IMG/VR virus record: IMGVR_UViG_2737471841_000003
DNA length: 15,937 bases
From: a virus
Lineage: Duplodnaviria > Heunggongvirae > Uroviricota > Caudoviricetes
Reading direction: 5' to 3' (one strand)
Shown: positions 1 through 15,937 of the stretch, piece after piece
Numbering within the stretch: the first letter of the stretch is position 1
Layout: each line of letters begins with the position of its first letter
Notes under the pieces: generated by a model
What the model was told of the DNA's origin: nothing
Database searches by the model: none
Seen by the model: the letters and a program-made list of their open reading frames with translations, nothing else
Program-made: the position numbers and the translations under genes

Positions 1-1
1 C

Positions 2-106: not shown

Positions 107-117
107 CAGAGGGAAAA

Positions 118-2256: not shown

Positions 2257-2261
2257 AAAAT

Positions 2262-2297: not shown

Positions 2298-2313
2298 ATG
2301 CCTGTATGTTTGC

Positions 2314-2463: not shown

Positions 2464-2539
2464 GGTGTACCTCCTATTGCACTGGCTACGCCAGGTAGCC
2501 ACAGCTACCCCGCAGGGTGTTACCGCCGTTAACGTCCAT

Positions 2540-2568
2540 ATTATAGCCAATATCTGGCGTTTAGACAA
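2540..2568 (-). promoter_or_regulatory. sigma70-like promoter for the 49-aa gene (-35 TTGTCT, 17-bp spacer, -10 TATAAT)
   Basis: Reverse complement of 2540-2568 reads TTGTCT-N17-TATAAT. The implied start site is about 70 nt upstream of the ATG at 2463. Confidence 0.35.
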
Positions 2569-2900
2569 TAGCAGTCTTTTTGATGCCGTGATGGTGGTAT
2601 ATAAGCCTGTGGCATCAATTAATAGGTTTTTCTGATTGTCTTGCAGATCAGCTTTATCAGGTATCTGTTTATGTTCCGGTACGATGAGACCGTGCGGGCA
2701 TCTCTTAGTTTTGGCTTATAACTTATGTGCCTGGTAAGAGAGCAGAACCACCATCAATCGCCTGTTTATCGCCTTGGTTAGGGCAGGGCCGCATCAAGCC
2801 CAGTGATCTGTAAGGTACTCCACACCATATACGCTTCTTTTCTCGTAGAGGTCGCGTTAACCTCTGGGGTGTGTTTCCATTCGACAGGATAGCATGATCA

Positions 2901-3728: not shown

Positions 3729-3743
3729 TTTCCCCTTGCCTTG

Positions 3744-3905
3744 TCAGATAATGCCATAGTGTTTCAATGTTTCAATCAACCCATTACGTTTCAGGAAAGT
3801 TCGCACAGCCTCACGCGTAACTCCGGCTTTTCTGGCTATTTCCGAAAGGTTGATAAAATCAGTGTCTGTGTTTTCAATAACAACACGTTTGTTAATCAAT
3901 TTCAT
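3744..3905 (-). CDS. 53-aa helix-turn-helix DNA-binding protein (MKLINKRVVIENTDTDFINLSEIARKAGVTREAVRTFLKRNGLIETLKHYGII); absent from the ORF track (below its length cutoff)
   Basis: Translated codon by codon from the reverse strand: ATG at 3905-3903, SD AAGGAG (complement of 3914-3919) at 8-nt spacing, TGA at 3746-3744. The segment LSEIARKAGVTREAVRTFL is a typical HTH (excisionase/MerR-like or Nu1-like). Confidence 0.5.
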   Translation of the reverse strand: MKLINKRVVIENTDTDFINLSEIARKAGVTREAVRTFLKRNGLIETLKHYGII

Positions 3906-3940
3906 AAAATAAGCTCCTTGAAGAATACAGGTAAAAGGAT

Positions 3941-3978
3941 AATAAAAAAGGGAGGGAGGTTGTTAGCCTCTCCTCCCT
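3941..3978 (-). terminator. Intrinsic terminator or stabilising hairpin just downstream of the major capsid gene
   Basis: On the - strand: GGGAGGAGAGG, loop CTAACAA, CCTCCCTCCC, then CTTTTTTATT. It begins about 20 nt after the capsid stop at 3996. Phages commonly place a strong hairpin after the capsid gene. Confidence 0.5.
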
Positions 3979-3995
3979 TGTATTTAGCTATCAGA

Positions 3996-5024
3996 TTATG
4001 CCGCTTCGGTTAATTTCAGTTTAAAAATGAAATCTGGCCTACTATTGAGGTACGCGGTATGGGATTCACAGAAGATTTTACGCTGGGTGTTAGTCTGTTC
4101 TAACCAGTAAATTTCCCGTGCAGGTGCACCGCTCATTGCATAGCGTAAATTACGGGTTGCAGGTCCCACAATTTCACTCATGCAAGGCAGGAAAGTATTC
4201 TTGCGAACTGCCGGAACAGCGTAAGCATGACCTTCTTTCATGAATGAATCGTCACAGCTGATAATAGTGATAGCAATGCCATCTACCTGGAATACAGAAT
4301 AACCCGGCAGATGTTCACCATCAAATACCATGCTGGATTTAACAGTACCATTACCGAACATAATAGCGCGGCGAATGTCTTTATCATCGTAACGCAGGCG
4401 ATCATAAGTTGAGCTATCTACGAAGAGATAAACCCCACCAAATGAGTGAACTAAACCGCCCATTTGTTTTTTGACCAGTTTTACAATTCGTTCAAGCTCA
4501 CGGATGAGATCGCCACCCAGGTTTAACTCATCTTCGGACTGTTTAAACTTGCCACCCAGTTCCTCGACAATATCGATATCCCCACCTTTGAAATGAATCA
4601 CGTTATCAAAGAGAGCGCGCTGCATAGCTTTTTCTCTTGCAATTTCAAGGCGTTGTTTCATGCTCAACAGGTGTTCACCCGTCACATCGTCCAAGGTTTT
4701 CTCACGATTGGTGCCTGGTTTGCGGTGACCCTGGAAAGCGCTGGCGCTGATCTGAGATTCCAGTGCATAAGCAGGAACACGCAGCATTAAAGTTTGTGCT
4801 GTACCTGTTACGATGCTGCCATAATCACCCAGATCATAATCGCTTACAACTGGGGCAGCTGATTGGGTTGCTGCAATAACGTTATCGAACACGAAGGAGG
4901 TTGTACTGGTGTAAATTTTTTCATTAAACAAGCCCAGAGAAGTGATCAGCTGGTTTTCTAATGTTGGTTCTAGCATCACACATTCTGTGACATCTTTATA
5001 ATCGAATAATTGAAAGTCTGCCAT
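3996..5024 (-). CDS. Major capsid protein, lambda gpE family (342 aa)
   Basis: Size matches lambda E (341 aa). Recalled local similarity to lambda gpE: KNTFLP vs KNFLP, SGAPAREIYW vs GDPAREFTM, and a similar central hydrophobic block. ATG at 5024. It sits directly downstream of a small decoration-like gene, as in lambda D-E. Confidence 0.7.
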   Translation of the reverse strand: MADFQLFDYKDVTECVMLEPTLENQLITSLGLFNEKIYTSTTSFVFDNVIAATQSAAPVVSDYDLGDYGSIVTGTAQTLMLRVPAYALESQISASAFQGHRKPGTNREKTLDDVTGEHLLSMKQRLEIAREKAMQRALFDNVIHFKGGDIDIVEELGGKFKQSEDELNLGGDLIRELERIVKLVKKQMGGLVHSFGGVYLFVDSSTYDRLRYDDKDIRRAIMFGNGTVKSSMVFDGEHLPGYSVFQVDGIAITIISCDDSFMKEGHAYAVPAVRKNTFLPCMSEIVGPATRNLRYAMSGAPAREIYWLEQTNTQRKIFCESHTAYLNSRPDFIFKLKLTEAA

Positions 5025-5036
5025 TCCATCCCCCTA

Positions 5037-5360
5037 TTAAAGTGCTAATTTGACATGTTCGTTTAACAGGTGGGGAATAGCTTCCGGAGGATTAATTCCG
5101 AAAGAATTTAATACCACACCGATCCCGTGAACAATAACTAATTTGTCGCCTTTTTTAGCTGGTTCCAATACCACAAATAAAGCAGGCATCTCTTCTTCGT
5201 CAGCGTCGAATTTTGCCCCTTCTGCGGTAATAACATCGCCAGGGAATAAATCCTCAGTTAATGCCGTTTTCAGTTCCAGAGCTTTTTGTTCAAACTCGGG
5301 GTCCATGGAATAGGCGACCACATCTGCACGTGTTTTACGCGGCTTATCAGAAAATAACAT
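5037..5360 (-). CDS. Putative head decoration protein (107 aa), lambda gpD-like by position and size
   Basis: ATG at 5360 with GAGGT SD. Its stop is 12 nt upstream of the capsid gene start. 107 aa vs 110 aa for lambda D. Sequence similarity to gpD was not confidently recognised; the call is positional. Confidence 0.45.
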   Translation of the reverse strand: MLFSDKPRKTRADVVAYSMDPEFEQKALELKTALTEDLFPGDVITAEGAKFDADEEEMPALFVVLEPAKKGDKLVIVHGIGVVLNSFGINPPEAIPHLLNEHVKLAL

Positions 5361-5429
5361 CGTGTTACCTCATCTCTATCGCATTTATCAGATTTAATGT
5401 ATTAGAATCTCACCTCTGATACATTAATA

Positions 5430-5460
5430 AAGGCCACCCCTTCAGGTTGGGTAGCCTTGA
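5430..5460 (-). terminator. Terminator-like hairpin upstream of the head genes (- strand)
   Basis: On the - strand: GGCTACCC, loop AACCTGAA, GGGTGGCC (8-bp stem with one G.U), then TTTATTAATG. It lies about 70 nt upstream of the start at 5360. Confidence 0.3.
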
Positions 5461-5913
5461 TAATGGACCAGGTGCATAATCCAGAGCACGAAGATTATTC
5501 TCTGGTCATTCGTCTGTCGAGGTGATTTAAATGTGAAGTGAATCAGGCATTACTGCCTCAATCCATATAATAAAACCTCCCCCTAGCCCAGAGAGAGGCC
5601 TTATTATTTACTAGGATATATGAATGACTGATTTCAGTCTGGCAGATTCGCTAATAGCTCACCGCCTGGCACTTATTATCGCCTTCATTAGATCACCACA
5701 AATAATGTCGGCTATGGGAGAATGTAACCCGCTCCCAGTTGTTCACAGTACAACCAGACTTTTTACTGGAGAAAGTAATATCCACTCGTATAAATATTAC
5801 CTTCTTTAAAGGCCCTCGCTACGGTGGAAAGAAGAGGTAGCACAGAACAACCAGCAAAGACCTTTAAAGAAGTACGCCCAGCATCAAGGGGAAAATGATG
5901 AAAAAGCTCTGAG

Positions 5914-5942
5914 CTTCCGGGCGTTGACAAGTACAGGAGAAC
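5914..5942 (+). promoter_or_regulatory. Near-consensus sigma70 promoter (TTGACA, 17-bp spacer, TATTAT; TG immediately upstream of the -10)
   Basis: TTGACA at 5914-5919, TATTAT at 5937-5942, TG at 5935-5936. Confidence 0.45.
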
Positions 5943-6018
5943 ACTGTATTATCCAATAATCGGTGAGATGTAGGTGAGATAACTCGAAAGGTGTAACCAT
6001 GAAAGTATCTACATCATA

Positions 6019-6038
6019 GTATTATGATAACATAATAC
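6019..6038. promoter_or_regulatory. Inverted repeat (GTATTATG ATAA CATAATAC), candidate operator or RNA hairpin in the leader
   Basis: 8-bp arms separated by 4 bp, downstream of the 5914 promoter and followed 16 nt later by a T7 run (6055-6061). Confidence 0.3.
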
Positions 6039-6095
6039 TTGCCGTTTGTCAATCCTTTTTTCAAAGAAATTTAAAAAATTTTTCTCTCCGCCTCT

Positions 6096-6142
6096 TTTCT
6101 CGATCAAACAATTGAAAAAACTATTGACTGAGGCGTTAGAAT
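6096..6142 (+). promoter_or_regulatory. Promoter for the homing-endonuclease-like gene: 13-bp upstream box TTTCTCGATCAAA, then -35 TTGAAA and -10 TAGAAT (19-bp spacer)
   Basis: The box at 6096-6108 is identical to 14751-14763, which sits in the same position relative to the consensus promoter at 14768. -35 at 6112-6117, -10 at 6137-6142. The spacer is longer than optimal. Confidence 0.35.
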
Positions 6143-6182
6143 GTGATACGGTTCACCACAAATGGTAAGTGGAGGGTGCGAT

Positions 6183-7013
6183 ATGAAAGAGAGAAAACAG
6201 GCTTTAGCTAAAACAACAGAGCAGTTCATCGCTGAGGCAAGGAAAGTGCATGGTGATAAGTACGATTATTCGAAAGTTGAATACGTGAATATGCGCACTG
6301 AGGTTTGTATCATTTGCCCAATACATGGGGAGTTCACACAAAGACCAGAGAACCATCTTCGCGGTAACAGAGGAAAGGGGTGTGGTTGCCCTATTTGTAA
6401 ACCTTGGAGAAAACGCCTGACACGAGAAGAGTTCGAAAGGAGGGTAAAAGAGGTACACGGTGATAACCTGGATGTTTCACAGTTCGATTATAAAAACGTT
6501 CACACAGAGGGTATTGTTAAGTGCAACAGGTGCGGCATGACGTTCTCGATACAGGCACAAGCGATTATCCTTAGAAATTCTGATGGTAGTCTTCTAGGCG
6601 GTTGCCCTGTGTGTGACCATCTACACAGAGACGCGGAATATGTTTATTTGGCGCTGGATGATCCACACTTTCCGACGAGATTTAAGATCGGGGTAACAAG
6701 CAACCCACAGGACAGATTGATAACTTTGAAGTGTAGAACACCTTTCAGGGTGTTTATGAAATGTTGTTTCAAAGTAGGAAAAGTGAAGGCGCGGAGGCTG
6801 GAGTACTTCCTGCACAACTTCTACAACTTCTGCAATTGTGGTTATGAATCAAGAAAGGACTTTCAGGGTGCAACAGAGTGGTTTTATTACCTGCAAAGTA
6901 AAGTAGGGGTGAAGAGGGTGCTCAAGATGTTAGTAAAACTGGTAAACGCCAGGAGCTACAACCGCCACTACATAAAGCATAAAAAGCCAACGTTTAAACG
7001 CACTTTGTTTTAA
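6183..7013 (+). CDS. Homing-endonuclease-like protein: two N-terminal Zn-ribbon repeats plus a C-terminal T5orf172 (GIY-YIG-like) domain
   Basis: Start moved to ATG 6183 (GGAGGG SD at 6171-6176); the track start at 6162 lacks an SD. Two tandem repeats of HGDKYDYSKVEY...C.ICP.HGEF.Q.P..HL.G.GC..C, then YVYLALDDPHFPTRFKIGVTSNPQDRL...EYFLH...ATEWFYY, which matches the T5orf172 pattern as I remember it. Confidence 0.65.
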   Translation: MKERKQALAKTTEQFIAEARKVHGDKYDYSKVEYVNMRTEVCIICPIHGEFTQRPENHLRGNRGKGCGCPICKPWRKRLTREEFERRVKEVHGDNLDVSQFDYKNVHTEGIVKCNRCGMTFSIQAQAIILRNSDGSLLGGCPVCDHLHRDAEYVYLALDDPHFPTRFKIGVTSNPQDRLITLKCRTPFRVFMKCCFKVGKVKARRLEYFLHNFYNFCNCGYESRKDFQGATEWFYYLQSKVGVKRVLKMLVKLVNARSYNRHYIKHKKPTFKRTLF

Positions 7014-7064
7014 TGGTGGGCCAGGGATGGTTATTGACTCTCAATCATTATTTTAAAAAAGATG

Positions 7065-7093
7065 TTGACTACCACACGGTAAAAGTGTATAAA
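7065..7093 (+). promoter_or_regulatory. Near-consensus sigma70 promoter (TTGACT, 17-bp spacer, TATAAA)
   Basis: TTGACT at 7065-7070, TATAAA at 7088-7093, about 40 nt upstream of the 7131 ORF. Confidence 0.5.
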
Positions 7094-7130
7094 GGGCCTA
7101 AAGAAAGAGAAGTGGCAAAGGAGGTAAAAA

Positions 7131-7250
7131 ATGTTCAGGCTGATGGTGAATGTCCTGGCGATAATCTTCGGGTTAGTGCTCTTTCTGATGGCCTGGAGCG
7201 TTATCTTTGAAGTAGTGGATATAGTGATGGCGATGTTAATGATTAAATAA
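7131..7250 (+). CDS. 39-aa hydrophobic single-TM peptide (MFRLMVNVLAIIFGLVLFLMAWSVIFEVVDIVMAMLMIK); not in the ORF track
   Basis: ATG at 7131 preceded by AGGAGG (7119-7124) at 6-nt spacing and by the 7065 promoter. TAA at 7248-7250. The overlapping track ORF 7013..7210 in another frame has no SD and covers the promoter. Confidence 0.4.
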   Translation: MFRLMVNVLAIIFGLVLFLMAWSVIFEVVDIVMAMLMIK

Positions 7251-7266
7251 CGCAGGAGGCAAGATC

Positions 7267-7329
7267 ATGAAACATTGGGAAGTGATTGCACTGTTCATCA
7301 TAATGTTTGTGATGTGCATCGAGTTTTAA
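7267..7329 (+). CDS. 20-aa hydrophobic peptide (MKHWEVIALFIIMFVMCIEF); not in the ORF track
   Basis: ATG at 7267 preceded by AGGAGG (7254-7259) at 7-nt spacing. TAA at 7327-7329. It is very short, so this is tentative. Confidence 0.3.
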   Translation: MKHWEVIALFIIMFVMCIEF

Positions 7330-7364
7330 CATTAGTCGATCAATATATTGAAGAGGTGACTACT

Positions 7365-7916
7365 ATGAAAACTATCAAAACTATCGCCGCTGTGGTCCTG
7401 GCAATGTTTGTGGGCAATGCTAATGCCGCCCTGGTGATCACAGACCAAGACATTGAAGACCACATGGAGACAATGGAGGTTTACTACCAGGCTGAGGATA
7501 TTGATTGTGAGATCTGGAGCAAGATGTTCACGAAAGGGGTAATTGAAGGTAACGACAAGTTCAGGCACGGTATCCGTGTTCACAAAGACCTCACAATTGT
7601 TGCCATGAAAGCTAAATCGGAGTTCTACAACAAATACGCAGGGGAGGTTGTCAAATCTGGCGCAAGTAAAGGATACAGCAAGGAGAGAGTAGATCAGATT
7701 AGAGATGTTTACATCGGTGCTTACATCGGTGCGGCCGAGATGAAATCTCGCGTAAACAGCAAGTTCGGCAAAGCCGCTGATCTTAACTCTGTAGCTAAAA
7801 AGAGAGCAGAAGCCGATCATTGGTTCAATTTCTGTGTGAAAGTGAAAGAAGAATATCCGGTCGTATTGTTCAACGAGTGGTTAGCTATAGCACAGCTGGC
7901 AGAAGATGATTTTTAA
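7365..7916 (+). CDS. Secreted (periplasmic) protein with Sec signal peptide, 183 aa
   Basis: Start moved to ATG 7365 (GAGGTG SD at 7353-7358). N-terminus MKTIKTIAAVVLAMFVGNANA/AL has n-, h- and c-regions with a predicted cleavage after ANA. There is no Cys at +1, so it is not a lipoprotein. The track start at 7275 lacks an SD. Confidence 0.6.
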   Translation: MKTIKTIAAVVLAMFVGNANAALVITDQDIEDHMETMEVYYQAEDIDCEIWSKMFTKGVIEGNDKFRHGIRVHKDLTIVAMKAKSEFYNKYAGEVVKSGASKGYSKERVDQIRDVYIGAYIGAAEMKSRVNSKFGKAADLNSVAKKRAEADHWFNFCVKVKEEYPVVLFNEWLAIAQLAEDDF

Positions 7917-7946
7917 CCGGGGACGATCATCGACTCAAAAAAGTGA

Positions 7947-7975
7947 TTGACAACGGAGGTGAGATCCGGTATAGT
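7947..7975 (+). promoter_or_regulatory. Near-consensus sigma70 promoter (TTGACA, 17-bp spacer, TATAGT)
   Basis: TTGACA at 7947-7952, TATAGT at 7970-7975, upstream of the 8011 gene. Confidence 0.5.
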
Positions 7976-8010
7976 TCACCACATAGAGAAGAGATACGGA
8001 GGGCAGCAAG

Positions 8011-8391
8011 ATGAAAACTTTCAATTGGGTTAAACCACAGATGTTACGTCGCGCCAATAACCACGGTGAGGGTGTACGCCACCACAACGACGCACCTGCA
8101 CCGGACATGAAGAAGGCACGCAAAGTGATCAATCTTCGTCAGGACGCGGCTATCGCTCGCAACCTGAAAGCAGAAGCGAAAAACCGTAACCCGTTGGAGG
8201 CAATTCTTGTTGCCCTGGTCAATGACCATGCAGCTCATTTCCGTCATTTCAATGGCATCAACCAGTACCAGATGGCAGAAGCCAACCGTAAAGAAGAAGA
8301 GCGGATCCTGGCTGGACTGGTACACGTTGAGATTGAACCTGAACCGGAACCGGAGGAAATTCATTGGGACCTCTGGAAAATGGCAGCTTAG
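8011..8391 (+). CDS. Hypothetical early protein (126 aa)
   Basis: ATG at 8011 with GGAGGG SD at 7998-8003. Contains a PEPEPE stretch. Function unknown. Confidence 0.6.
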   Translation: MKTFNWVKPQMLRRANNHGEGVRHHNDAPAPDMKKARKVINLRQDAAIARNLKAEAKNRNPLEAILVALVNDHAAHFRHFNGINQYQMAEANRKEEERILAGLVHVEIEPEPEPEEIHWDLWKMAA

Positions 8392-8452
8392 TCCACAGAG
8401 TGGATTTCACAGAGTGAAACCTGATAACAGGCAGCTTGAGGAGGCTTGAATC

Positions 8453-8917
8453 ATGAAAATTTTCAGTATTGAACATTACGAAGACAAAATTGAAGAGCTG
8501 GAAAGACTGGCTGAGATTGCAGATTATCGCGCGGGGTACGCCGCTGGACTTGCGGAAGTTCGGGAAAAAATACTTAAAAAATTCCACAGCTTGTACTATG
8601 TCCTGGCGGTTGCTGAGCAAGAACAAGATGAGGAGCTGTACGAGTACACGTCGTGCCGTATCCTGGAAATGGCGGGTGTGTACGGCATAATCAAGGCGGG
8701 AGAGGTGATCTCAGACGAAGAGATTGCGAAGAGACTTCGTAAACGCATCGAAAACGCATACTTTGAAGCGATCTACTATACGAAAAAAAGCACGGAGCTG
8801 TATAAACGCATAACTGCGGCGACGAAAGTTGTCACTCAGCTACAGAAAGTAAAAATCTTCAAACTGAAAGCGGCGTTGGCTATCGGTAAAATGTTTTTCC
8901 CACATCGTTTCAATTGA
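8453..8917 (+). CDS. Hypothetical early protein (154 aa)
   Basis: ATG at 8453 with GAGGAGG SD. Function unknown. Confidence 0.65.
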   Translation: MKIFSIEHYEDKIEELERLAEIADYRAGYAAGLAEVREKILKKFHSLYYVLAVAEQEQDEELYEYTSCRILEMAGVYGIIKAGEVISDEEIAKRLRKRIENAYFEAIYYTKKSTELYKRITAATKVVTQLQKVKIFKLKAALAIGKMFFPHRFN

Positions 8918-8945
8918 TTAAATAATAAACAGAGGAGACTGTAAA

Positions 8946-9314
8946 ATGAGTTACGAAAACTGCTGTTTCTGTGTGGAAGATGTGCCGCCAGTCATTCTGG
9001 AGCGTCACGGTGTGAAAACGTATCTGCCGATGATTCTGATGTTCGAGCATTTCCTCGATCATGGTGATGACGGTTTTTATGTCGGTTATAGTGAGGACGA
9101 TTTCCCTCCTGACTTGCTGAAAGAGTTGGAAGAAAAAGGCATCATTGAAGTATTTGATCAAACTGACGTGGATAATGGTGTGTGGGTAAGGGTTAAAAAA
9201 GAGATTCACATTGAACGTCTGCAACTTGCGGCAGAAGTCCAGGGCCTTGAGATTCTCGACATGAGCGACTACCTCAAACAACTGGACGAAGCATACAAGG
9301 CGCACGATTTATAG
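8946..9314 (+). CDS. Hypothetical acidic early protein (122 aa)
   Basis: ATG at 8946 with AGAGGAG SD. Tightly spaced after the preceding gene. D/E-rich. Confidence 0.65.
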   Translation: MSYENCCFCVEDVPPVILERHGVKTYLPMILMFEHFLDHGDDGFYVGYSEDDFPPDLLKELEEKGIIEVFDQTDVDNGVWVRVKKEIHIERLQLAAEVQGLEILDMSDYLKQLDEAYKAHDL

Positions 9315-9327
9315 GGGAGACACACAG

Positions 9328-9642
9328 ATGAATAAAGACGTGATTGAACTGCTGGAACAACTGAACAAGGCCGCTGAGTATATCCTGGCCGATGTGAAGG
9401 TCCTGGATGGTCACTTGTTGCTGGCGAGCAAGTCAGCCACACAGGAAGGAAGGGACAGGGCTGTCGAGCTATACGTTCAGGATGCTGCACATCTTATAAA
9501 CAAATGGTTGCCTGATGTGGGTGTCGAGGTGACAAACTACGCAGAAGCAACGGCGGCGCATATGGTGCTGATGCATCTGGCAATTGATAGTTACCGTAGT
9601 AACATGTTAGCAATGCTGGACTTCATGAAGGCTAAAAATTAA
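9328..9642 (+). CDS. Hypothetical early protein (104 aa)
   Basis: ATG at 9328 with GGGGAG SD, 14 nt after the preceding stop. Confidence 0.6.
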   Translation: MNKDVIELLEQLNKAAEYILADVKVLDGHLLLASKSATQEGRDRAVELYVQDAAHLINKWLPDVGVEVTNYAEATAAHMVLMHLAIDSYRSNMLAMLDFMKAKN

Positions 9643-9704
9643 TCGTACTCGATCAATAGTTCAATTTTACTTATGAATTGTGGAGAGCATAAGAGGTTCC
9701 AACA

Positions 9705-10226
9705 ATGAAAACTGAACTCAAACATGAAATTCTAAACGCTTTTAACAACCGTATCGAGGCCATAGTGGATGGTCAACCTGGCGGGATGTTCTTTGTGGAG
9801 GAAGCCATAGAGCTGGCTAAAGCGGAGGAAGCAGTAGAGAGAATACTCAACATCCCACACAGTGATCAATGTCTGGTAGATAGGTATCTATACGGCTTCA
9901 TGCGACTGGTCCGGCATTATTGCGAGGTGCCTGTGGACCATCATTTTATCAGTATGATCTACGCCGATGCTTCTGACTTCTTCTACAGGCTAGATCACAG
10001 AATAGACGAAATGATTGTTGTGTTACTGGCGGGATCTGATGACGAAAGGTTGTTAGACGTAGAACCTGATGAACTGGTGAAAAAACTTATTGAGCGTGTT
10101 TATCGGGAAATGGAGGCAGACGTAGAGGCAGCGGGTGAAGATGGAAGAATGCGGCAGAAGCTGGAGGCCGCGTATAAGGCCAGGCCGAAGGATGATGATG
10201 ACGATACGGAAGGAATCCCATTCTGA
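9705..10226 (+). CDS. Acidic early protein (173 aa) with an SSB-like C-terminal tail (...KDDDDDTEGIPF)
   Basis: ATG at 9705 with AAGAGG SD. Strongly acidic overall. The C-terminal codons were checked directly: GAC GAT ACG GAA GGA ATC CCA TTC TGA. Confidence 0.65.
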   Translation: MKTELKHEILNAFNNRIEAIVDGQPGGMFFVEEAIELAKAEEAVERILNIPHSDQCLVDRYLYGFMRLVRHYCEVPVDHHFISMIYADASDFFYRLDHRIDEMIVVLLAGSDDERLLDVEPDELVKKLIERVYREMEADVEAAGEDGRMRQKLEAAYKARPKDDDDDTEGIPF

Positions 10227-10277
10227 GCTATTGGGGCCGTCACTGGCCCCGCTTACCAACTAATCGGAGAGCATAAG

Positions 10278-10553
10278 ATGAAACTCAAACTTATCGAAAG
10301 TCAGCTGAACATGTTCTTTAAGATGGCAAGTGTGATCATTGTGGACGGTGAACAATTCGCGGGTCCAGTGCCACACAGTAGCATCGTTTTAGATATCAAC
10401 AGAGAGGCCCTTAAATGCGTTGTGGAGGCCGTATTTAATCAGGATGTAAAAGTGTATAGGCTTATGGAGTTTGAGCTACAGGAGCGCGATTTACGCATCA
10501 TAGAGCGACATTTGAAGGCTGAGCAAGCCGCAGAAGAGTTGAACCTGGATTAA
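10278..10553 (+). CDS. Hypothetical early protein (91 aa)
   Basis: ATG at 10278 with GGAGAG SD. Confidence 0.6.
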   Translation: MKLKLIESQLNMFFKMASVIIVDGEQFAGPVPHSSIVLDINREALKCVVEAVFNQDVKVYRLMEFELQERDLRIIERHLKAEQAAEELNLD

Positions 10554-10662
10554 GGGGGTGTATACCCCGAACATTGTGAGAGGTGTGAGATGGCTAAACA
10601 AATACTTTCAATTGTTCCACTGTGGAAACTGAATCATAAATTCGTAAAAAAATGGTAAACCA

Positions 10663-11013
10663 GTGCTGTTTACATACCTTGATGCGCTGGTCTTCGGTTA
10701 CATAGCACGAGCTAACTATGGGGGCAAGTGGTTCAACTTCGTAATGAAGAATGCAATCTACGACCTCTATACAAGCGAGAAGGAGATAACGCACAGCGTT
10801 GAAAAACTGGTTATGTTAAGACTTATCAAAATAATGCCGGGTGAAAGTTTGCCTAACTGCCACATGGTGGCGCAAGTCACTCATAAGGAATTGGAAGACA
10901 CGATCAATAGGTATATCGAGCGTGAAAGAATGTCTTGCGCGATGATCGACCTTGATGAAGAGAGGAGGAAACAATTCCAGGGTAATGATGAATGGGAAGA
11001 TTGTCCTTTTTAA
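10663..11013 (+). CDS. Hypothetical protein (116 aa from a GTG start; start uncertain), C-terminus ...NDEWEDCPF
   Basis: The ORF is open from 10648. The first start codon is GTG at 10663 with no clear SD; an alternative ATG at 10744 has a weak SD. It is preceded by a 22-codon uORF (10590-10658, SD GAGAGGTG) that ends in an A7 run. Confidence 0.45.
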   Translation: MLFTYLDALVFGYIARANYGGKWFNFVMKNAIYDLYTSEKEITHSVEKLVMLRLIKIMPGESLPNCHMVAQVTHKELEDTINRYIERERMSCAMIDLDEERRKQFQGNDEWEDCPF

Positions 11014-11030
11014 TGTAGGGGGGTGGCAAA

Positions 11031-12008
11031 ATGACTACAGAAGTGATGATCCAGATTTTCGAATCTGATTTAAATAATGATGGTAACTTAGTCCCGGTTG
11101 TTAACGCCCGTGAGTTTTACGAAGCGCTTGGGATGCGAAAAGATTATGGAAATTGGATCAGGTGGCATCTTCGGAAATTTGAAAAAAATCGGGACTTTAT
11201 TACTTTTATCGATAAGTCGGGAGAACATCCGCGTCATAACTATTTTATCACTTTGGACACTGCAAAGCACATATGCAGGGTGAGCCAACGCCAGGAAGGT
11301 GAGCAGTTGCTACAGTATTTAATTAAAGTTGAAAAAAGATACCGTTTAGTACTGGACCCACAACCACAGATTCCTGTTTACACACAGTCACAGATTCCTG
11401 TTTACACACAGTCACAGATTCCTGTTTACACACAGACGGAACCTGAACCGTTGCCAGGAACACCGGAACATTTTGCCCGTGCATTTACGGAGGCTTACCA
11501 ACAGATATACGGGGCAACAGATCAGCAGCCAGTCATTGAGCACAATACGGAACCTGTGGTTCCTTGTTGGGGAGCTGGGTCTAATCAGAGCCTCGAGGTC
11601 CAGGATGTGCAGGAAGTACGACCGCCAGCACCTGTGCTGGGGTATTACAATCCTTGCCCGGACAACAAAATCAACATGAAAGGCTTAAAAGAATACCTGA
11701 GCAATGAACGCCTGATCAAGTACCTCATTAAAAAATTCAACATTGAAAATGAGATTTATGATTATGGTTACATAAATGTGAAAGGGAAAGCTGAGTCGGA
11801 GATTGTGTACGATAAACGTAAAACGCTGGCGATCTTACATGCCGCTTACGCTTTGAGTACTAGAGTAAACGCCACACAGAGAGAGTTTATGGGGATAGTA
11901 TTCACGATGTACAGGGTGTTAAGAGACACACATTATGATAAGGACATGTACGATACAGCTTACACTCTTCTTGAAGAGGATATAAACAAATTGTATAAAA
12001 TTGATTGA
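11031..12008 (+). CDS. Antirepressor-like protein with N-terminal AntA-type domain (325 aa)
   Basis: ATG at 11031 with a G-rich SD. The N-terminus (VVNAREFYEALGMRKDYGNWIRWHLRKFEKNRDFITF...YFITLDTAKHI) matches the AntA/AntB antirepressor N-terminal pattern as I remember it. Contains a triplicated QIPVYTQS repeat. Confidence 0.65.
   Translation: MTTEVMIQIFESDLNNDGNLVPVVNAREFYEALGMRKDYGNWIRWHLRKFEKNRDFITFIDKSGEHPRHNYFITLDTAKHICRVSQRQEGEQLLQYLIKVEKRYRLVLDPQPQIPVYTQSQIPVYTQSQIPVYTQTEPEPLPGTPEHFARAFTEAYQQIYGATDQQPVIEHNTEPVVPCWGAGSNQSLEVQDVQEVRPPAPVLGYYNPCPDNKINMKGLKEYLSNERLIKYLIKKFNIENEIYDYGYINVKGKAESEIVYDKRKTLAILHAAYALSTRVNATQREFMGIVFTMYRVLRDTHYDKDMYDTAYTLLEEDINKLYKID
11367..11438 (+). repeat. 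Three tandem 24-bp direct repeats (CAGATTCCTGTTTACACACAGTCA) inside the antirepressor-like gene
   Basis: Units at 11367-11390, 11391-11414 and 11415-11438; the third differs in its last bases. In frame, encoding QIPVYTQS x3. Confidence 0.9.
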
Positions 12009-12086
12009 GCATCTATACTCGATCACAACTCAACAATAAAGACGGAGAGTCGAGAGCATGACTCTCCTCAACCCCGGAGGCCCAAC

Positions 12087-12362
12087 ATGTATTACTACGA
12101 TTGCAAAGACCCGATTCTGGCTGAACGTAACCGCCTGGCTAATGAGATCGCCCAACAGGCAAAAGAGAAAAAAGCCCAACAGCGTATGGAGCTTGGAAAA
12201 GAGATTTACAGACTCCACACAGACGGCTACACAATGGAATGTATAGCCAAAAAGCTGGGAATGTCTGAACCAACAGCCTACAGACTGCAACGGGCATATC
12301 TGAAAGCTAACCCGCACCTCAAAGTGTTCTCGGGGCGTGTTGCGGCACGGGGTCGTAGTTAA
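12087..12362 (+). CDS. Small HTH DNA-binding protein (91 aa), resolvase/sigma-region-4-like HTH
   Basis: ATG at 12087 with GGAGG SD (12076-12080). The segment GYTMECIAKKLGMSEPTAYRLQRAY is HTH-like. Its stop lies 10 nt before the first operator-like palindrome. Confidence 0.6.
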   Translation: MYYYDCKDPILAERNRLANEIAQQAKEKKAQQRMELGKEIYRLHTDGYTMECIAKKLGMSEPTAYRLQRAYLKANPHLKVFSGRVAARGRS

Positions 12363-12371
12363 CACACACTA

Positions 12372-12408
12372 GGGACAAAATGTCCTACCTACCCGGGACA
12401 AAATGTCC
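12372..12408. promoter_or_regulatory. Two copies of a 14-bp palindromic operator-like site, GGGACAAAATGTCC, 23 bp centre to centre
   Basis: Exact copies at 12372-12385 and 12395-12408. Each is a dyad (GGACA-N3-TGTCC). Confidence 0.5.
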
Positions 12409-12409
12409 A

Positions 12410-12419
12410 CCCCCCCCCC
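12410..12419. repeat. Homopolymeric C10 tract
   Basis: Ten consecutive C at 12410-12419, directly after the second operator copy. Confidence 0.9.
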
Positions 12420-12449
12420 GGCAATATGTGATTCCCGGAAGACACATGT

Positions 12450-12486
12450 TTGTACAAATTGTAGTCACTGATTGTACAGATTGTAG
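12450..12486. repeat. Two direct repeats TTGTACA(A/G)ATTGTAG spaced 22 bp
   Basis: 12450-12464 and 12472-12486. Each has a TGTACA palindromic core. Confidence 0.6.
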
Positions 12487-12490
12487 CACT

Positions 12491-12573
12491 ATACCGGTTT
12501 TCCGATAGAGCTATACCGGATTTCCGGTAGAGGTATACCGCTTTTCCGGTATAGGTATACCGGATTTCCGGTA
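12491..12573. repeat. Iteron array: four 17-bp dyad-symmetric sites (ATACCGG-N-TTTCCGGTA) at exactly 22-bp spacing; putative replication origin or partition/regulator binding array
   Basis: Sites at 12491-12507, 12513-12529, 12535-12551 and 12557-12573. Arms TACCGGA and TCCGGTA are reverse complements. Followed by an AT-rich stretch (12574-12622), the same layout as the lambda origin (four dyad iterons plus an AT-rich region). Confidence 0.6.
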
Positions 12574-12622
12574 ACTATTAGATCAATCTATTACATCAAG
12601 AAAAAAGATCACTTATTATATT

Positions 12623-12645
12623 AAGGGCCTTGCCCTTTTTGTTGT
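12623..12645 (+). terminator. Terminator-like hairpin (AAGGGC, loop CTT, GCCCTT, then TTTGTTG)
   Basis: 6-bp GC-rich stem with a 3-nt loop, then a T-run, at the end of the AT-rich region. It would terminate read-through from the 12087 gene across the iterons. Confidence 0.35.
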
Positions 12646-13845
12646 GGGATTGATTGGTGGGATTGATCTTACTGATAGTATAATACTCCACCAATCAACC
12701 CTAAGTTGTGGGAGAGTACGGAGCAGACTGCGACTACAGAGCAGGCTGAGAAGTACTCAATGGGTGTAAGGGATTAAGGGACCCACACACATTTCCACAC
12801 ACAGAGTAAAGCCAGAGGCTTTATGAAGTGTAAGAGTAATGCCTAAAGAGTCGAAGCACACTTTAGGCTATATTGTGTGGGAGGTATCTGTACATAGTAC
12901 AGAGTACTCCCCATTATGTGGGGGCAATCCTGCCCGTAAGGGCAGCTCATGTGATTCGCAGCCGTAAGCTGAACTGCGACGAAGAAGGCTGCAAAGGTTC
13001 TCGGCCCGGTTACAATTACGCAACAATTTTATAATCTATCGTTAACCTATACCACTATCACAATTTCTATAGTTGAGTCCTACTATCCCCTACACCATAA
13101 AATCAATTTTAAGCCACACTCAGCCTACGGCTTCACGGTAAAACGTGTTTTAACCCACATAATGGCCCCTGTAGTGAGCTAAATGGTATACACCGCTATA
13201 ATTGGGTTACTTATGAGATAACCTCGTTAGAATCGATTCTAGAGCGTTTTAGAGCTTGAAATCCATCCTGCAAACTGCAAGATGATGATTCTATCGGGGA
13301 AGAATTTTTTTCCTTCCCGTAAGTCGTACCGTAGAGCAGATTTGCTTTACGAGCTTTCTCACACCTCAGGCCTCTGGCCTTCATGGAGTATCGGAGATAC
13401 GACTCACCGCATATACTCTGTTTTCAGTGCTACCCTGATCGCATCCGACCCTTTTCAGAGGCACTTTTAACCGCATTCTGGCACGCTACAACAGCAAGAA
13501 ATAGGCTGATTCTACTGATTTTACCTTACAATACAGGTACATAGCAGAAGGGCAGGAATATACTGTGAGAATGGTTGCTAGACCGGGCCTTCTTCTCTCT
13601 GTGTGTGCATTCTGAAACCGTTATGTAGTCGAGTATATAACGACTGGTCAGACCAGTGCAGGGCTGAAAATGATGATCGGTCACCACAATTATGGGCAAA
13701 TTACTGTACATTCATACAGTAGTTATACATAAAGAATATGCATCGATTGCTCTTTAGGCACAGATGTTATAATGTAACAATTAATTTAGTTTACCTCGGT
13801 AATCACTGTGTGGACATGTCACGCAACTAAACTAAATCCGAAGAG

Positions 13846-13854
13846 TTATCCACA
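13846..13854 (+). promoter_or_regulatory. Consensus DnaA box TTATCCACA
   Basis: Exact 9-mer match to the R-type DnaA box, single copy. Nearby are an 8-bp palindrome GACATGTC (13812-13819) and a 10-bp inverted repeat, ATTTAGTTTA (13783-13792) with TAAACTAAAT (13827-13836). Confidence 0.3.
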
Positions 13855-14687
13855 GATTGGGGGTAAATCATCAACATAGTCTGTAGCCTCTGACAGAGAG
13901 CAAAAAGAAAGGCCTTTTATGTGATCAATATCACGTTTCTGGGGTAGTTCTGGAGGCTTAGGTGCGGGGAAGTAGTGCGTACTGACACCAGAGGCCGCAT
14001 AAAACAAGGGGATTTAACATAATGGATCTTGTATACACCACACCTCACCACGTTGAAATCTGATCTTACTTTGAGGCTATCTGCCAACAGAATCCGCGTA
14101 CATGCACCATAACCTGTATGTGGGATGCAATAATAAAGGCCCTGGCGGCCCACAGGCCGCATGAATACTGGGCTTGTCATAGATATGGGCCTGTATCGCT
14201 ATGTAGATGCGGGATGACCTGTAAGGGTGTGGCAGGTGGCAGGGGCTGGAGGGCACGGTACAGCACAGCTAATGGGTGAGGCCCCAGATATTTGAGAATC
14301 ACTCTCACCTGAGAATAATTATCAGTAACTCCTGCCTAGTACCACCCCTGTAGGTAAGGTTGATCATTGCCCACATTGCTGGTATACTTTATCTGTGGGA
14401 AAGTAACGCCGTTACTTCCGCGAACGCTGTGCGTGATGTGTGGGAGAATGTGCCTGCGTAATAAAAAAATTGAAAATTACTCATCTGTCAACATTTCAAT
14501 GACGTATGTCAATCATTTATGCTATGTGTTTACTTTATAATCAATCACTTACGAATTTAATGAAATAAATGCATTTAAATAGGGTGAAACTCAAATCTAA
14601 CCCCTGAAACTGTGTTGATAAAGGGGCGTGAAGCCCGGCGTAGGTAACTCGTTACCCGCCAGTGTTATTGATAATTCTCATTTACGT

Positions 14688-14716
14688 TTGACAATGCAAT
14701 CCCAATGGTGTATAAT
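14688..14716 (+). promoter_or_regulatory. Perfect consensus sigma70 promoter (TTGACA, 17-bp spacer, TATAAT)
   Basis: TTGACA at 14688-14693 and TATAAT at 14711-14716, in an AT-rich upstream context. Confidence 0.6.
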
Positions 14717-14750
14717 AGACTATAAGGGGTAAGATAGAATCTTTACTCAA

Positions 14751-14796
14751 TTTCTCGATCAAAGGTATTGACAAATGAGAGTAAAGGTGTTATACT
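14751..14796 (+). promoter_or_regulatory. Second tandem near-consensus promoter (13-bp box TTTCTCGATCAAA, then TTGACA, 17-bp spacer, TATACT)
   Basis: Box at 14751-14763, -35 at 14768-14773, -10 at 14791-14796. It lies 80 bp downstream of the 14688 promoter. Confidence 0.6.
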
Positions 14797-14885
14797 TATC
14801 TATAACAGCAAAACTCTACTTTAGAGCCGCTCCATGAGGAGCAAAGCTCCGAAGTGTGATCATAGTCGGTAAATCCCTTACTTAC

Positions 14886-14918
14886 CGGGGGCACTTCTCC
14901 AGCCCCCTCTCTTTTTAA
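14886..14918 (+). terminator. Intrinsic terminator in the leader (GGGGGC, 9-nt loop, GCCCCC, then TCTCTTTTTAA)
   Basis: Stem 14887-14892 pairs with 14902-14907, followed by a T-run at 14908-14916. It is about 110 nt downstream of the predicted start site and about 50 nt upstream of the 14969 start. Confidence 0.5.
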
Positions 14919-14968
14919 CGGTATGGTAAGAAAACATTCTTTATAAGTGATAAAAGAGGTAGTTAATC

Positions 14969-15208
14969 ATGGCTAAACCTTATTCAAATAGCTTTAACAT
15001 TGAAACAATGAGAGCTGATCAGATTGTAGACATGGTGAGGAACCAGGAACTTTCAGAGGAGACGCTCTACATGTTCATCTATCGCACGAAGAACCGTTAC
15101 CCGGAGGTAGATAAGGCATGGAAGGAGATCAAGCGCCTCAAAAAAGAGTTCAAGAAAGAAGCTGAATTGTACTGGCGCAAACGGTTTTTCTATAACTACA
15201 AAGGCTAA
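14969..15208 (+). CDS. Hypothetical basic protein (79 aa)
   Basis: ATG at 14969 with AGAGGT SD. K/R-rich C-terminal half. Confidence 0.6.
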   Translation: MAKPYSNSFNIETMRADQIVDMVRNQELSEETLYMFIYRTKNRYPEVDKAWKEIKRLKKEFKKEAELYWRKRFFYNYKG

Positions 15209-15240
15209 TCGGTAGAGATAACAAAGATAAAGGTGGAAAC

Positions 15241-15756
15241 ATGAGAGCAGTTTTTGATCAGCTGCCGTGGTGGCTTGATTTTCTCGAAGAACTGGACGGA
15301 AAGAAATTTAAACTGACAAAAGGTGAAGCGAGAGCATTTGCTTGTATTCTTACGTATGCCGCGACATGTGGTAAGATTTTCCCGTCACTCCACACAATAG
15401 CCCTTCATATGGGTTTACGGAGTGAAAAACGAGCGCCGACACAGGCGCATAAAGCGATCAAAGGCCTGGAGGAAAAAGGCCTTATACGTGTTAGCCGTCG
15501 CGCTGGGTGTGGAAACCATTATGAACTAGTTTACACAGCAGATCAACTCTTTGAGATGACAAAGCAACAGAATCCAGACTTGTTCAAAGGCTATGAAGAC
15601 ACGTTCGGAGAAGAGGATAGGGAGAGAGAACAGGCAGGGGATAAACCGAAGAAACATGATACAAAACAGGGGGTTACGTGTCAACATGACAACGGTCAAC
15701 CGGATGATATTCACATAGAAGCGTGTGATCTGGATGCTACTGACATACCATTTTAA
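15241..15756 (+). CDS. HTH_36-type winged-helix DNA-binding protein (phage replication/regulatory type), 171 aa, with SSB-like C-terminus (...DLDATDIPF)
   Basis: ATG at 15241 with AAGGTGG SD. The segment LTKGEARAFACILTYAATCGKIFPSLHTIALHMGLRSEKRAPTQAHKAIKGLEEKGLIRVSRR matches the HTH_36 pattern seen in the N-terminal domains of phage replication proteins. The terminal codons GAC ATA CCA TTT TAA were checked. Confidence 0.7.
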   Translation: MRAVFDQLPWWLDFLEELDGKKFKLTKGEARAFACILTYAATCGKIFPSLHTIALHMGLRSEKRAPTQAHKAIKGLEEKGLIRVSRRAGCGNHYELVYTADQLFEMTKQQNPDLFKGYEDTFGEEDREREQAGDKPKKHDTKQGVTCQHDNGQPDDIHIEACDLDATDIPF

Positions 15757-15824
15757 CATAAATCACAGCTCCGCATGAAGCTACGCTGAATAAATCACAC
15801 TGTATTAACAATGAGGTAACAAAA

Positions 15825-15937
15825 ATGAGTTTAGTTGAAAGATTGAAAAAAATCCTCGCCACAGAAGAGGTAGAGGAAGAGGAAGAAGTAGAGAAGGCGG
15901 CGGATCCTAAGCCTGAGAAGGCTGTGAATACCCAGAG
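15825..15937 (+). CDS. 5' end of a downstream gene (partial; MSLVERLKKILATEEVEEEEEVEKAADPKPEKAVNTQ...)
   Basis: ATG at 15825 with GAGGT SD (15813-15817). The ORF is open to the window end. Confidence 0.5.
   Translation, partial: MSLVERLKKILATEEVEEEEEVEKAADPKPEKAVNTQ

What the first reader, a model, noticed from the sequence alone, without database searches (positions are those of the whole stretch)
9705..10226. Strongly acidic early protein with an SSB-like tail (...DDDDDTEGIPF); a third protein ends ...EWEDCPF
A second, unrelated early protein also terminates in an acidic run plus IPF, and the 10663-11013 protein ends in acidic residues plus CPF. The motif recurs on several early proteins and one is highly acidic overall, which points to a shared strategy of SSB-tail mimicry or DNA mimicry, for example to sequester host nucleases or helicases that dock on SSB, or to act as an anti-restriction decoy.
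Basis: inference. Interest (0 to 1): 0.55.

Follow-up and report, generated by a model that had tools for sequence, protein, structure and literature searches.

The report
SSB-tail mimics on a phage-like plasmid
A small circular phage-like plasmid of E. coli that has no replication enzymes of its own puts a copy of the docking tail of the host's single-stranded-DNA-binding protein on three unrelated proteins, probably to plug them into host replication and repair machinery.

Summary
ORF 9705-10226 encodes a 173-aa acidic protein (pI 4.6, net charge -19) ending DDDDDTEGIPF. Two further unrelated proteins in the window end EWEDCPF and DATDIPF. Chance is about 2e-5.

The tip is conserved. Among the 13 homologues that exist in about 5.8 billion protein clusters, I and F are invariant and P is kept in 12. 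Distant members end DDPMDFDSSIPF, close to the enterobacterial SSB end PMDFDDDIPF. The body is an orphan helical bundle with a disordered tail and no Pfam, PHROG, NCBIfam, PDB or BFVD match.

The window is a complete 15,937-bp circle. It is a phage-like plasmid with tape-measure-like, Dit-like and capsid genes, 22-bp iterons, a replication-initiator-like winged-helix (wHTH) protein that also carries the tip, and no SSB, polymerase, helicase or primase.

Most likely the tips dock into the SSB-tail pockets of host SSB-partner proteins. The initiator-like protein would recruit them. The accessory 173-aa protein would act as adaptor or competitor. This is inferred, not shown.

DNA mimicry or anti-restriction is not supported. 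Sequestration versus recruitment cannot be decided here.

A survey of viral contigs shows that SSB-type tips on non-SSB replication proteins are common. This is a new variant of a known docking principle.

The parts
9705..10226 (+). Gene for the 173-aa acidic helical protein with an SSB-like C-terminal tip (the finding)
   Evidence: There are 13 homologues. The AF2 model is all-helical with pLDDT 70.6. There are no family or fold matches.
9705..9899 (+). Conserved N-terminal domain (aa 1-65), the best-conserved part of the body and the presumed second binding surface
   Evidence: In alignment A1 the mean commonest-residue fraction is 0.84 here, against about 0.5 for the middle.
10179..10223 (+). 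Disordered acidic tail (aa 159-173), with the tip I-P-F at 10215-10223
   Evidence: pLDDT is below 50 for residues 159-173. I171 and F173 are invariant, and P172 is kept in 12 of 13.
10590..11013 (+). Second tip-bearing gene (ends DEWEDCPF), split in this copy by a one-base frame change in the A7 run 10646-10652
   Evidence: All four family members end DCPF, and the homologues are 141-147 aa. The AF2 model is too poor to use (pLDDT 48.5).
15241..15756 (+). Third tip-bearing gene: a 171-aa replication-initiator-like wHTH protein ending DATDIPF (tip codons 15745-15753)
   Evidence: Weak hits to PHROG replication-initiation families 270, 8102, 391 and 428, and to Pfam LexA_DNA_bind and HTH_36. 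Divergent 240-319-aa positional equivalents hit phrog_678, 1032 and HTH_24 and end EWDDNVPF or YDDNKPF.
12483..12573 (.). Four 22-bp iterons (CTATACCGGATTTCCGGTAGAG): a candidate origin or binding array for the wHTH proteins
   Evidence: Function is inferred.
5924..5952 (+). Sigma-70-like promoter (11 of 12) at the head of the rightward operon that contains the target. A second one lies at 7947-7975.
   Evidence: These are consensus matches only.

Best explanation
The 173-aa protein is a folded helical domain carrying a flexible acidic linker. The linker ends in a copy of the SSB C-terminal tip (hydrophobic-Pro-Phe with a free carboxylate).

It most likely works by inserting this tip into the pocket that host SSB-interacting proteins use to bind the tail of SSB. 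In E. coli these include the chi subunit of Pol III, DnaG, PriA, PriC, ExoI, RecQ, RecG, RecO and others. The conserved N-terminal domain would hold a second partner. The protein would then act as an adaptor or competitor that diverts one or more SSB partners.

It belongs to an element-wide strategy. This 15.9-kb circular phage-like plasmid has no SSB, polymerase, helicase or primase, yet puts the same tip on its initiator-like wHTH protein and on a third protein. The initiator-like protein, bound at its iterons, would therefore act as a surrogate SSB hub that draws host priming, restart and polymerase factors to the element.

Shown: the motif, its conservation, the disorder of the tail, the unrelated bodies and the gene inventory.

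Inferred: that the tip binds SSB-partner pockets, which partner, and whether the effect is recruitment or inhibition.
For: 1. The tip is present and conserved while the flanking sequence diverges. I and F are kept in 13 of 13 and P in 12 of 13, whereas the middle region scores about 0.5.
2. Distant homologues end DDPMDFDSSIPF or DDDPLDFDSGIPF. Enterobacterial-type SSBs in the survey end EPPMDFDDDIPF.
3. The tail is predicted to be disordered (pLDDT <50 for residues 159-173) behind a helical body. This is the architecture of the SSB linker plus tip.
4. Three families with no detectable homology carry the tip in one element. All CPF-family members keep DCPF. Thirteen of the 14 initiator-like proteins keep [IVK]PF, two of them with one extra acidic residue after it, and one ends IPL.
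5. The window is a seamless circle. The 72-aa ORF 15825-15937 plus 1-106 is colinear with its homologues. The full inventory contains no replication enzyme or SSB, but it does contain iterons.
6. Distant E. coli plasmids of the same class have small acidic ORFs ending DSDIPY or DSCIPY. They share the tape-measure, Dit-like, capsid, HTH_23 and initiator-like genes at 29-45% identity.
7. In viral contigs, SSB-type tips sit on AEP primases, a T7 gp4-like primase-helicase (DDCPF, next to an SSB ending DDDDIPF), SF2 helicases and others. The tip is therefore a general handle of replication proteins.
8. Literature: the SSB tip DDDIPF binds many partners (PMC5872125). [quoted passage not shown] DnaG and chi compete for it (PMC3632105).
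Against: - No binding was or could be tested here.
- The residues just before IPF are T-E-G or D-S-G/S rather than D-D-D, so affinity for canonical pockets may be weak or selective.
- One target homologue has ISF, the substitution I recall (my own knowledge) as the ssb113 P176S defect.
- Some initiator-like homologues end IPFE, IPFD or IPL. An extra residue would bury the terminal carboxylate that canonical recognition uses.
- The distant plasmids use IPY.
- The identical tail DNA in window, L001 and L003, despite 65% protein identity for L003, points to recombination. Part of the apparent conservation is therefore not independent.
- The partner could be encoded by a helper phage rather than the host.
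Confidence: 0.45

Rival explanations
1. The tips do not address host SSB partners. They dock on a protein of a helper phage, or on another protein of the element itself, in the way the acidic Phe-terminated tails of T7 gp4 and gp2.5 both dock on T7 DNA polymerase.
For: The element carries capsid-E-like, Dit-like and tape-measure-like genes but no terminase or portal. This suggests dependence on a helper. T7 is a precedent: the peptide DTDF, which mimics the gp4 tail, occupies the site on gp5 that was used to model the gp2.5 tail (PMC12339929). In L064 a gp4-like primase-helicase ends DDCPF next to the phage's own SSB.
Against: The element encodes no polymerase or other obvious hub. The type-2 tails copy the enterobacterial SSB end closely (PMDFD..IPF). 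A helper whose SSB has the host-type tip would make the two readings indistinguishable.
Confidence: 0.15
2. The 173-aa protein is itself a non-canonical, non-OB single-stranded-DNA-binding protein of the element. The tip would then be in its normal context.
For: The element has no recognisable SSB. In the survey, only 32 of 112 viral ORFs ending DDDIPF match Pfam SSB, plus 2 that match SSB_1, and several of the rest may be unrecognised SSBs. Overall acidity is also seen in T7 gp2.5 (my own knowledge).
Against: The predicted fold is all-helical with no OB fold and no similarity to any solved or predicted ssDNA-binding protein. The gene is accessory, being absent from L005. The same tip sits on two other proteins, at least one of which is wHTH-like.
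Confidence: 0.1
3. The acidic tail is an intramolecular or electrostatic regulator. It would be a DNA-mimicking tail that folds back on a basic surface, as described for SSB, T4 gp32 and T7 gp2.5, with no external partner.
For: This is plausible for the two DNA-binding-like proteins (the initiator-like and CPF proteins). Acidic runs precede each tip.
Against: The 173-aa body is itself acidic (net -19 including the tail), so there is no obvious basic surface to mask. Electrostatics alone does not explain invariant Ile/Pro/Phe at the very end across unrelated families.
Confidence: 0.08
4. The whole protein is a DNA mimic that inhibits restriction enzymes or other DNA-binding defence proteins, in the manner of Ocr or ArdA.
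For: It has 23% acidic residues, a helical fold and an accessory position in a variable block of small genes behind host-type promoters.
Confidence: 0.07
5. The C-terminal similarity is coincidental and has no function.
For: Short motifs can recur by chance.
Against: P is about 2e-5 for three in one 19-gene element. The motif is conserved in all three families and in distant plasmids.
Confidence: 0.01

Closest known systems
C-terminal tip of bacterial SSB (SSB-Ct, E. coli ...PMDFDDDIPF)
   Same: An acid-rich disordered tail ending in hydrophobic-Pro-Phe at the very C-terminus. Distant homologues of the target match PMDFD..IPF at 8 of 10 positions. The architecture is a folded domain, a flexible linker and a tip.
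   Different: The body is not an OB fold and has no SSB family match. The three residues before IPF are TEG or DSG/S rather than DDD. The tip is carried by three unrelated non-SSB proteins in one element.
Acidic Phe-terminated tails of T7 gp4 primase-helicase and gp2.5 SSB
   Same: This is a precedent for the same tail type on an SSB and on a non-SSB replication protein, docking at one site (PMC12339929, and my own knowledge of the T7 literature). The survey found a gp4-like protein ending DDCPF, the same CPF variant as in the window.
   Different: In T7 the partner is the phage's own polymerase, and this element has none. The T7 tails end DF, not [I/C/V]PF.
Phage SSB-like proteins that keep the host-type tip (for example Bas52_0087, the trigger of DRT10)
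   Same: A mobile-element protein with an FDDDIPF tip, proposed to interfere with host ssDNA-processing factors such as ExoI/SbcB (bioRxiv 10.64898/2026.04.29.721553).
   Different: Bas52_0087 is predicted to have two OB folds, so it is an SSB-like protein. The target is helical with no OB fold.
DNA-mimic anti-restriction proteins (Ocr, ArdA)
   Same: Small, acidic, encoded among early or accessory genes of mobile elements.
   Different: There is no sequence or fold similarity. The charge is lower. The conserved feature here is a terminal peptide, not a surface charge pattern.
Small circular E. coli plasmids pE275a_13, pMB4926_4 and pZ1322MEC0003-2 (13.2-13.7 kb, annotated with a tape measure protein and a major capsid protein)
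   Same: They have the same gene set (tape measure, Dit-like, capsid, HTH_23-like, initiator-like wHTH) at 29-45% protein identity, with a long stretch lacking annotated genes. They also have small acidic ORFs ending DIPY or CIPY.
   Different: They are very divergent, with no DNA-level match. They have no homologue of the 173-aa protein. Their tip ends in Tyr.

Membership tests
Bacterial/phage SSB family (Pfam PF00436) | OB-fold ssDNA-binding domain detectable by the family profile | tested here: not met
   There is no Pfam, PHROG or NCBIfam hit. The AF2 model is all-helical. The profile search against PDB sequences gave nothing better than E = 0.5.
Bacterial/phage SSB family (Pfam PF00436) | Disordered linker followed by an acidic tip ending [IL]PF | tested here: met
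   The protein ends DDDDDTEGIPF and residues 159-173 have pLDDT below 50.
SSB-Ct-type docking peptide (functional class) | Phe as the very last residue, Pro at -2, a hydrophobic residue at -3 and acidic residues upstream | tested here: met
   The motif is kept in 12 of 13 homologues and one has ISF.
SSB-Ct-type docking peptide (functional class) | Three consecutive Asp immediately before IPF, as in E. coli SSB | tested here: not met
   The residues are TEG (type 1) or DSG/DSS (type 2), and the acidic run lies 3 residues further upstream.
SSB-Ct-type docking peptide (functional class) | Binds the SSB-Ct pocket of SSB-interacting proteins (chi, ExoI, PriA, RecQ and others) | not testable with these tools
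   Complex prediction with host proteins was not possible, and no binding assay is available.
DNA-mimic anti-restriction proteins (ArdA PF07275, Ocr) | Sequence or fold similarity to ArdA or Ocr | tested here: not met
DNA-mimic anti-restriction proteins (ArdA PF07275, Ocr) | Surface array of carboxylates that imitates the DNA backbone | tested here: inconclusive
   Net charge is -19 and D+E is 23%. The model's confidence (pLDDT 70.6) is too low for surface analysis.
T7-type acidic tails that dock on the phage polymerase | Cognate phage polymerase present as the docking partner | tested here: not met
   The complete circular element has no polymerase gene.
Iteron-type or lambda O-like replication initiator (for the tip-bearing 171-aa protein) | wHTH DNA-binding domain with similarity to initiator families | tested here: inconclusive
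   Only weak hits were found: phrog_270 at 3e-5, phrog_391 (O-like) at 4e-4, phrog_678 at 1.3e-5 for the L001 version, and HTH_24 at 8e-5 for L005. The Pfam hits are below their cut-offs for the window copy.
Iteron-type or lambda O-like replication initiator (for the tip-bearing 171-aa protein) | Array of directly repeated binding sites on the same replicon | tested here: met
   There are four 22-bp repeats at 12483-12573. Binding was not tested.

The most novel reading that the evidence does not exclude
This phage-like plasmid replaces helicase-loader and replisome-recruitment functions with peptide mimicry. A double-stranded-DNA-bound initiator would present SSB tips and so act as a surrogate SSB hub, calling in PriA or PriC, DnaG and Pol III. 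The orphan 173-aa protein would be the first non-OB, non-DNA-binding protein that competitively captures a specific SSB partner, for example ExoI, RecQ or a defence nuclease that rides on SSB. More broadly, the SSB tip would be a portable short linear motif used by many phage proteins. Only about 30% of viral ORFs ending DDDIPF are recognisable SSBs.
Probability: 0.2. Interest if true: 0.75.

Novelty: new variant of a known kind. Interest (0 to 1): 0.58.

Why it matters
The SSB tail is the central docking site for bacterial replication, recombination and repair proteins, and it is being pursued as an antibiotic target. A mobile element that copies this peptide onto unrelated proteins, one of which has no other recognisable function, would be a natural example of short-motif mimicry against that hub.

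It would give a compact system of three genes on a 16-kb plasmid. That system could be used to ask which SSB partners can be recruited or blocked by a tethered tip, and how an element with no replication enzymes assembles a replisome.

The survey also suggests that many phage replication proteins carry the tip. I found no discussion of this for non-SSB proteins in the papers searched.

Tried and rejected
**DNA searches.** The region and the whole window gave no relative in the phage, plasmid and complete E. coli genome collections. The only hit was a 100-bp antA match. tblastn of the target and of the capsid protein against phages found nothing.

**Family and profile searches for the target.** Pfam, PHROGs and NCBIfam found nothing. 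PADLOC was not searched. A profile search of 1.84 billion representatives added no real member; P0023 is a tandem-repeat artefact. Pattern scans of viral, genome and metagenome contig collections for relatives found none.

**Literature.** Seven searches for non-SSB proteins with SSB tips, or for phage mimics of the SSB tail, found only OB-fold SSB-like cases.

**RNA.** Rfam (gathering and E-value modes) and tRNA scans found nothing in the window or in the ORF-poor stretch.

**Unresolved.** I could not read the other 47 kb of the 60-kb contig that holds relative L001. I therefore could not settle whether that relative is integrated.

Full report
**Observation**

The ORF at 9705-10226 (+) starts at an ATG eight bases after AAGAGG. 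It encodes 173 residues ending KARPKDDDDDTEGIPF. The protein has 23% Asp+Glu, net charge -19 and pI 4.59.

Two more proteins in the window end in acidic residues followed by x-Pro-Phe. ORF 10663-11013 ends NDEWEDCPF. ORF 15241-15756 ends DLDATDIPF.

The background rate comes from 1871 ORFs of 120 viral loci, not counting the ORFs selected for DDDIPF. There, 0.27% end in an acid-rich [ILVMC]PF. Three such ends among the 19 genes of this element therefore have a probability of about 2e-5.

The three proteins have no detectable similarity to one another (hhalign probabilities below 1%).

One correction applies. The CPF gene is about 140 aa in its homologues (141-147 aa, beginning MAKHILSIVPLWKLN). 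In the window it is split by a one-base frame change in the A7 run 10646-10652. The N-terminal part is the short ORF 10590-10658.

**Conservation**

The target family is tiny. There are 13 members among about 5.8 billion protein clusters. A profile search of 1.84 billion representatives added nothing real.

In the alignment, the first 65 residues are well conserved (commonest-residue fraction 0.84). The middle is variable (about 0.5). The last three residues are nearly invariant (0.97): I and F in 13 of 13, and P in 12 of 13, with one ISF.

There are two tail types:
- KDDDDDTEGIPF in the close relatives.
- DDDP(L/M)DFDS(G/S)IPF in the distant ones.

The second type resembles the enterobacterial SSB end EPPMDFDDDIPF, which appears on SSB-type ORFs in my survey.

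Part of the conservation of type 1 is not independent. The tail DNA is identical in window, L001 and L003, although L003 is only 65% identical overall. This points to recombination.

All four CPF-family members end DCPF. The 171-aa protein and its divergent 240-319-aa positional equivalents end DIPF, GIPF, DIPFE, DIPFD, DIPL, NVPF or NKPF.

**The protein body**

AlphaFold2 with the 13-sequence alignment gives an all-helical bundle (pLDDT 70.6). The last 15 residues are disordered.

Nothing informative came from any comparison:
- Foldseek against BFVD.
- A profile search of PDB sequences.
- Pfam, PHROGs and NCBIfam.

The body is an orphan. It is not an OB fold and not an ArdA- or Ocr-like protein.

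**The replicon**

The two ends of the window are contiguous in relatives. A 72-aa ORF runs seamlessly across the junction (15825-15937 plus 1-106) and is colinear with its homologues. The window is therefore a complete 15,937-bp circle. NCBI labels its proteins as E. coli.

Its inventory is:
- a tape-measure-like protein, a Dit-like protein and a capsid-E-like protein with a 107-aa upstream gene;
- a T5orf172 endonuclease-like gene, where relatives have a serine recombinase;
- a block of small genes that contains the target;
- an AntA-like protein and an HTH_23 protein;
- a 79-aa protein followed by the initiator-like wHTH protein.

There is no SSB, polymerase, helicase, primase, terminase or portal.

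Four 22-bp iterons lie at 12483-12573. Strong sigma-70-like promoters head the operons.

Very distant relatives are complete circular E. coli plasmids of 13.2-13.7 kb (pE275a_13, pMB4926_4, pZ1322MEC0003-2 and NZ_CP020521.1), all of which match the capsid protein at 28-29% identity. For pE275a_13 the tape-measure, Dit-like, capsid, HTH_23 and initiator-like proteins are 29-45% identical, and the annotated gene order is similar in pMB4926_4 and pZ1322MEC0003-2. Two of these plasmids carry small acidic ORFs ending ENDSDIPY and ERDSCIPY.

The 173-aa gene always sits just upstream of a conserved 91-aa gene. It is absent from relative L005, which keeps the other two tip-bearing proteins. The target is thus accessory, whereas the tip on the initiator-like protein is a core feature.

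**Wider context**

I scanned IMG/VR contigs for DNA encoding DDDIPF followed by TAA.

Of 112 distinct ORFs of at least 60 aa with that end:
- 32 match Pfam SSB and 2 match SSB_1;
- the rest include SF2 helicases, a DnaB-like protein, an AEP primase, DUF669 and Pam3_Gp34;
- about 65 have no Pfam match.

Tips that were not selected for in the same loci sit on AEP primases (ending DDIPF, YDIPF and EDIPF). One sits on a T7 gp4-like primase-helicase ending TTDDCPF, next to an SSB ending DDDDIPF.

The SSB-type tip is therefore a widespread handle on phage replication proteins, and the CPF variant is used elsewhere.

ORF starts in this survey were set mechanically. Some unmatched ORFs may be divergent SSBs.

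**Mechanism**

Established knowledge: the SSB tip (DDDIPF) is the docking peptide for many partners (PMC5872125). [quoted passage not shown] DnaG and chi compete for it (PMC3632105). In T7, the tails of gp4 and gp2.5 address the same site on the polymerase (PMC12339929).

Given that, the most economical reading has three steps.
- The tips of this element dock into the SSB-tail pockets of host proteins.
- For the initiator-like protein on an element without replication enzymes, the likely use is recruitment of priming, restart or polymerase factors to the iteron region.
- For the accessory, variable 173-aa protein, the tip would link whatever its conserved N-terminal domain binds to an SSB partner, or compete with SSB for that partner.

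None of these steps is demonstrated. Which partner is involved, and whether the effect is recruitment or inhibition, are open.

**Points against**

- The three residues before IPF are not Asp.
- Some homologues have IPFE, IPFD, IPL or ISF.
- The distant plasmids end in Tyr.
- The true partner could belong to a helper phage.

**Rivals**

- A partner in a helper phage or in the element itself (0.15).
- A non-canonical SSB (0.10).
- A purely electrostatic fold-back tail (0.08).
- A whole-protein DNA mimic or anti-restriction protein (0.07).
- Chance (0.01).

It also does not explain the invariant terminal tripeptide.

**Novelty and verdict**

The docking principle is known, and T7 offers a precedent for a shared tail on an SSB and a non-SSB protein. 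In the literature available here, I found no description of SSB tips on non-OB proteins of mobile elements. The nearest case, Bas52_0087, is an OB-fold SSB-like protein.

I rate this a new variant of a known kind, of moderate to good interest. It is testable with simple peptide-competition, pull-down and plasmid-maintenance experiments.

Noticed in passing
window 1-15937 (junction ORF 15825-15937 + 1-106): The window is a seamless closed circle. A 72-aa ORF spans the contig ends and is colinear with homologues in L001 and L004. The element is a 15.9-kb phage-like plasmid with tape-measure-like, Dit-like and capsid-E-like genes but no terminase, portal or replication enzymes. It may be a satellite.
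   Followed up: partly
L130 (NZ_CP035869.1), L131 (CP134895.1), L132 (CP148565.1), NZ_CP020521.1: Complete circular E. coli plasmids of 13.2-13.7 kb, typed non-mobilizable. pE275a_13 shares the same odd gene set at 29-45% protein identity, and all four match the capsid protein at 28-29%. They seem to form an uncharacterised class of capsid-encoding mini-plasmids. Two carry small acidic ORFs ending DSDIPY or DSCIPY.
   Followed up: partly
window 12600-14950: About 2.3 kb has no convincing ORF, Rfam match or tRNA. All related metagenome contigs break inside the equivalent stretch. Conserved patches lie at 12637-12803, 12922-13047 and 13573-13736. The segment 12630-12810 folds unusually well on both strands (z about -3.6). 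The distant plasmids have a similar gap of about 2.2 kb without annotated genes.
   Followed up: partly
window 12483-12573 and 12372-12417: There are four 22-bp iterons (CTATACCGGATTTCCGGTAGAG, each with an internal palindrome) and two 23-bp repeats just after the HTH_23 gene, followed by a terminator-like hairpin at 12623-12637. This is a candidate origin or centromere.
   Followed up: no
window 10590-11013 (A7 run 10646-10652): The CPF gene is interrupted by a one-base frame change in a poly-A run, relative to intact homologues of 141-147 aa. This could be a sequencing error, a pseudogene or slippage.
   Followed up: partly
L010-L129 (IMG/VR loci): Of 112 viral ORFs ending DDDIPF, only 32 match Pfam SSB and 2 match SSB_1. 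Tips also occur on AEP primases, a gp4-like primase-helicase (DDCPF), SF2 helicases, Pam3_Gp34-like proteins, DUF669 and recurrent small families of about 75 aa and 80-85 aa with no Pfam match. Several loci hold two or more tip-bearing proteins.
   Followed up: partly
window 6162-7013: A 283-aa T5orf172/MUG113-type endonuclease-like gene occupies the position where relatives L001, L002, L003, L005 and L008 carry a 188-214-aa serine recombinase (Resolvase).
   Followed up: no
window 11365-11435: A perfect 24-bp tandem repeat (3 copies) inside the AntA-like gene encodes QSQIPVYT three times.
   Followed up: no
L001 (contig k141_228590, 60,220 bp): One relative lies at the end of a 60-kb metagenome contig rather than on a 14-16-kb contig. 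It may be integrated or joined to other DNA. The upstream 47 kb could not be read.
   Followed up: no
L002 20-964, L004 239-1156, L005 47-1003: The long initiator-like proteins have an acidic, Pro/Glu-rich linker. In L004 and L005 the linker also holds an internal GIPF(E/G)EP motif about 20-35 residues before the terminal DDN(V/K)PF. L002 has GLVFEEP at that position.
   Followed up: no
window 7275-7916: A 213-aa protein carries an internal signal-peptide-like segment (MKTIKTIAAVVLAMFVGNANA, from about residue 31, so the true start may be that later ATG) and ends in AEDDF. It has no family match.
   Followed up: no
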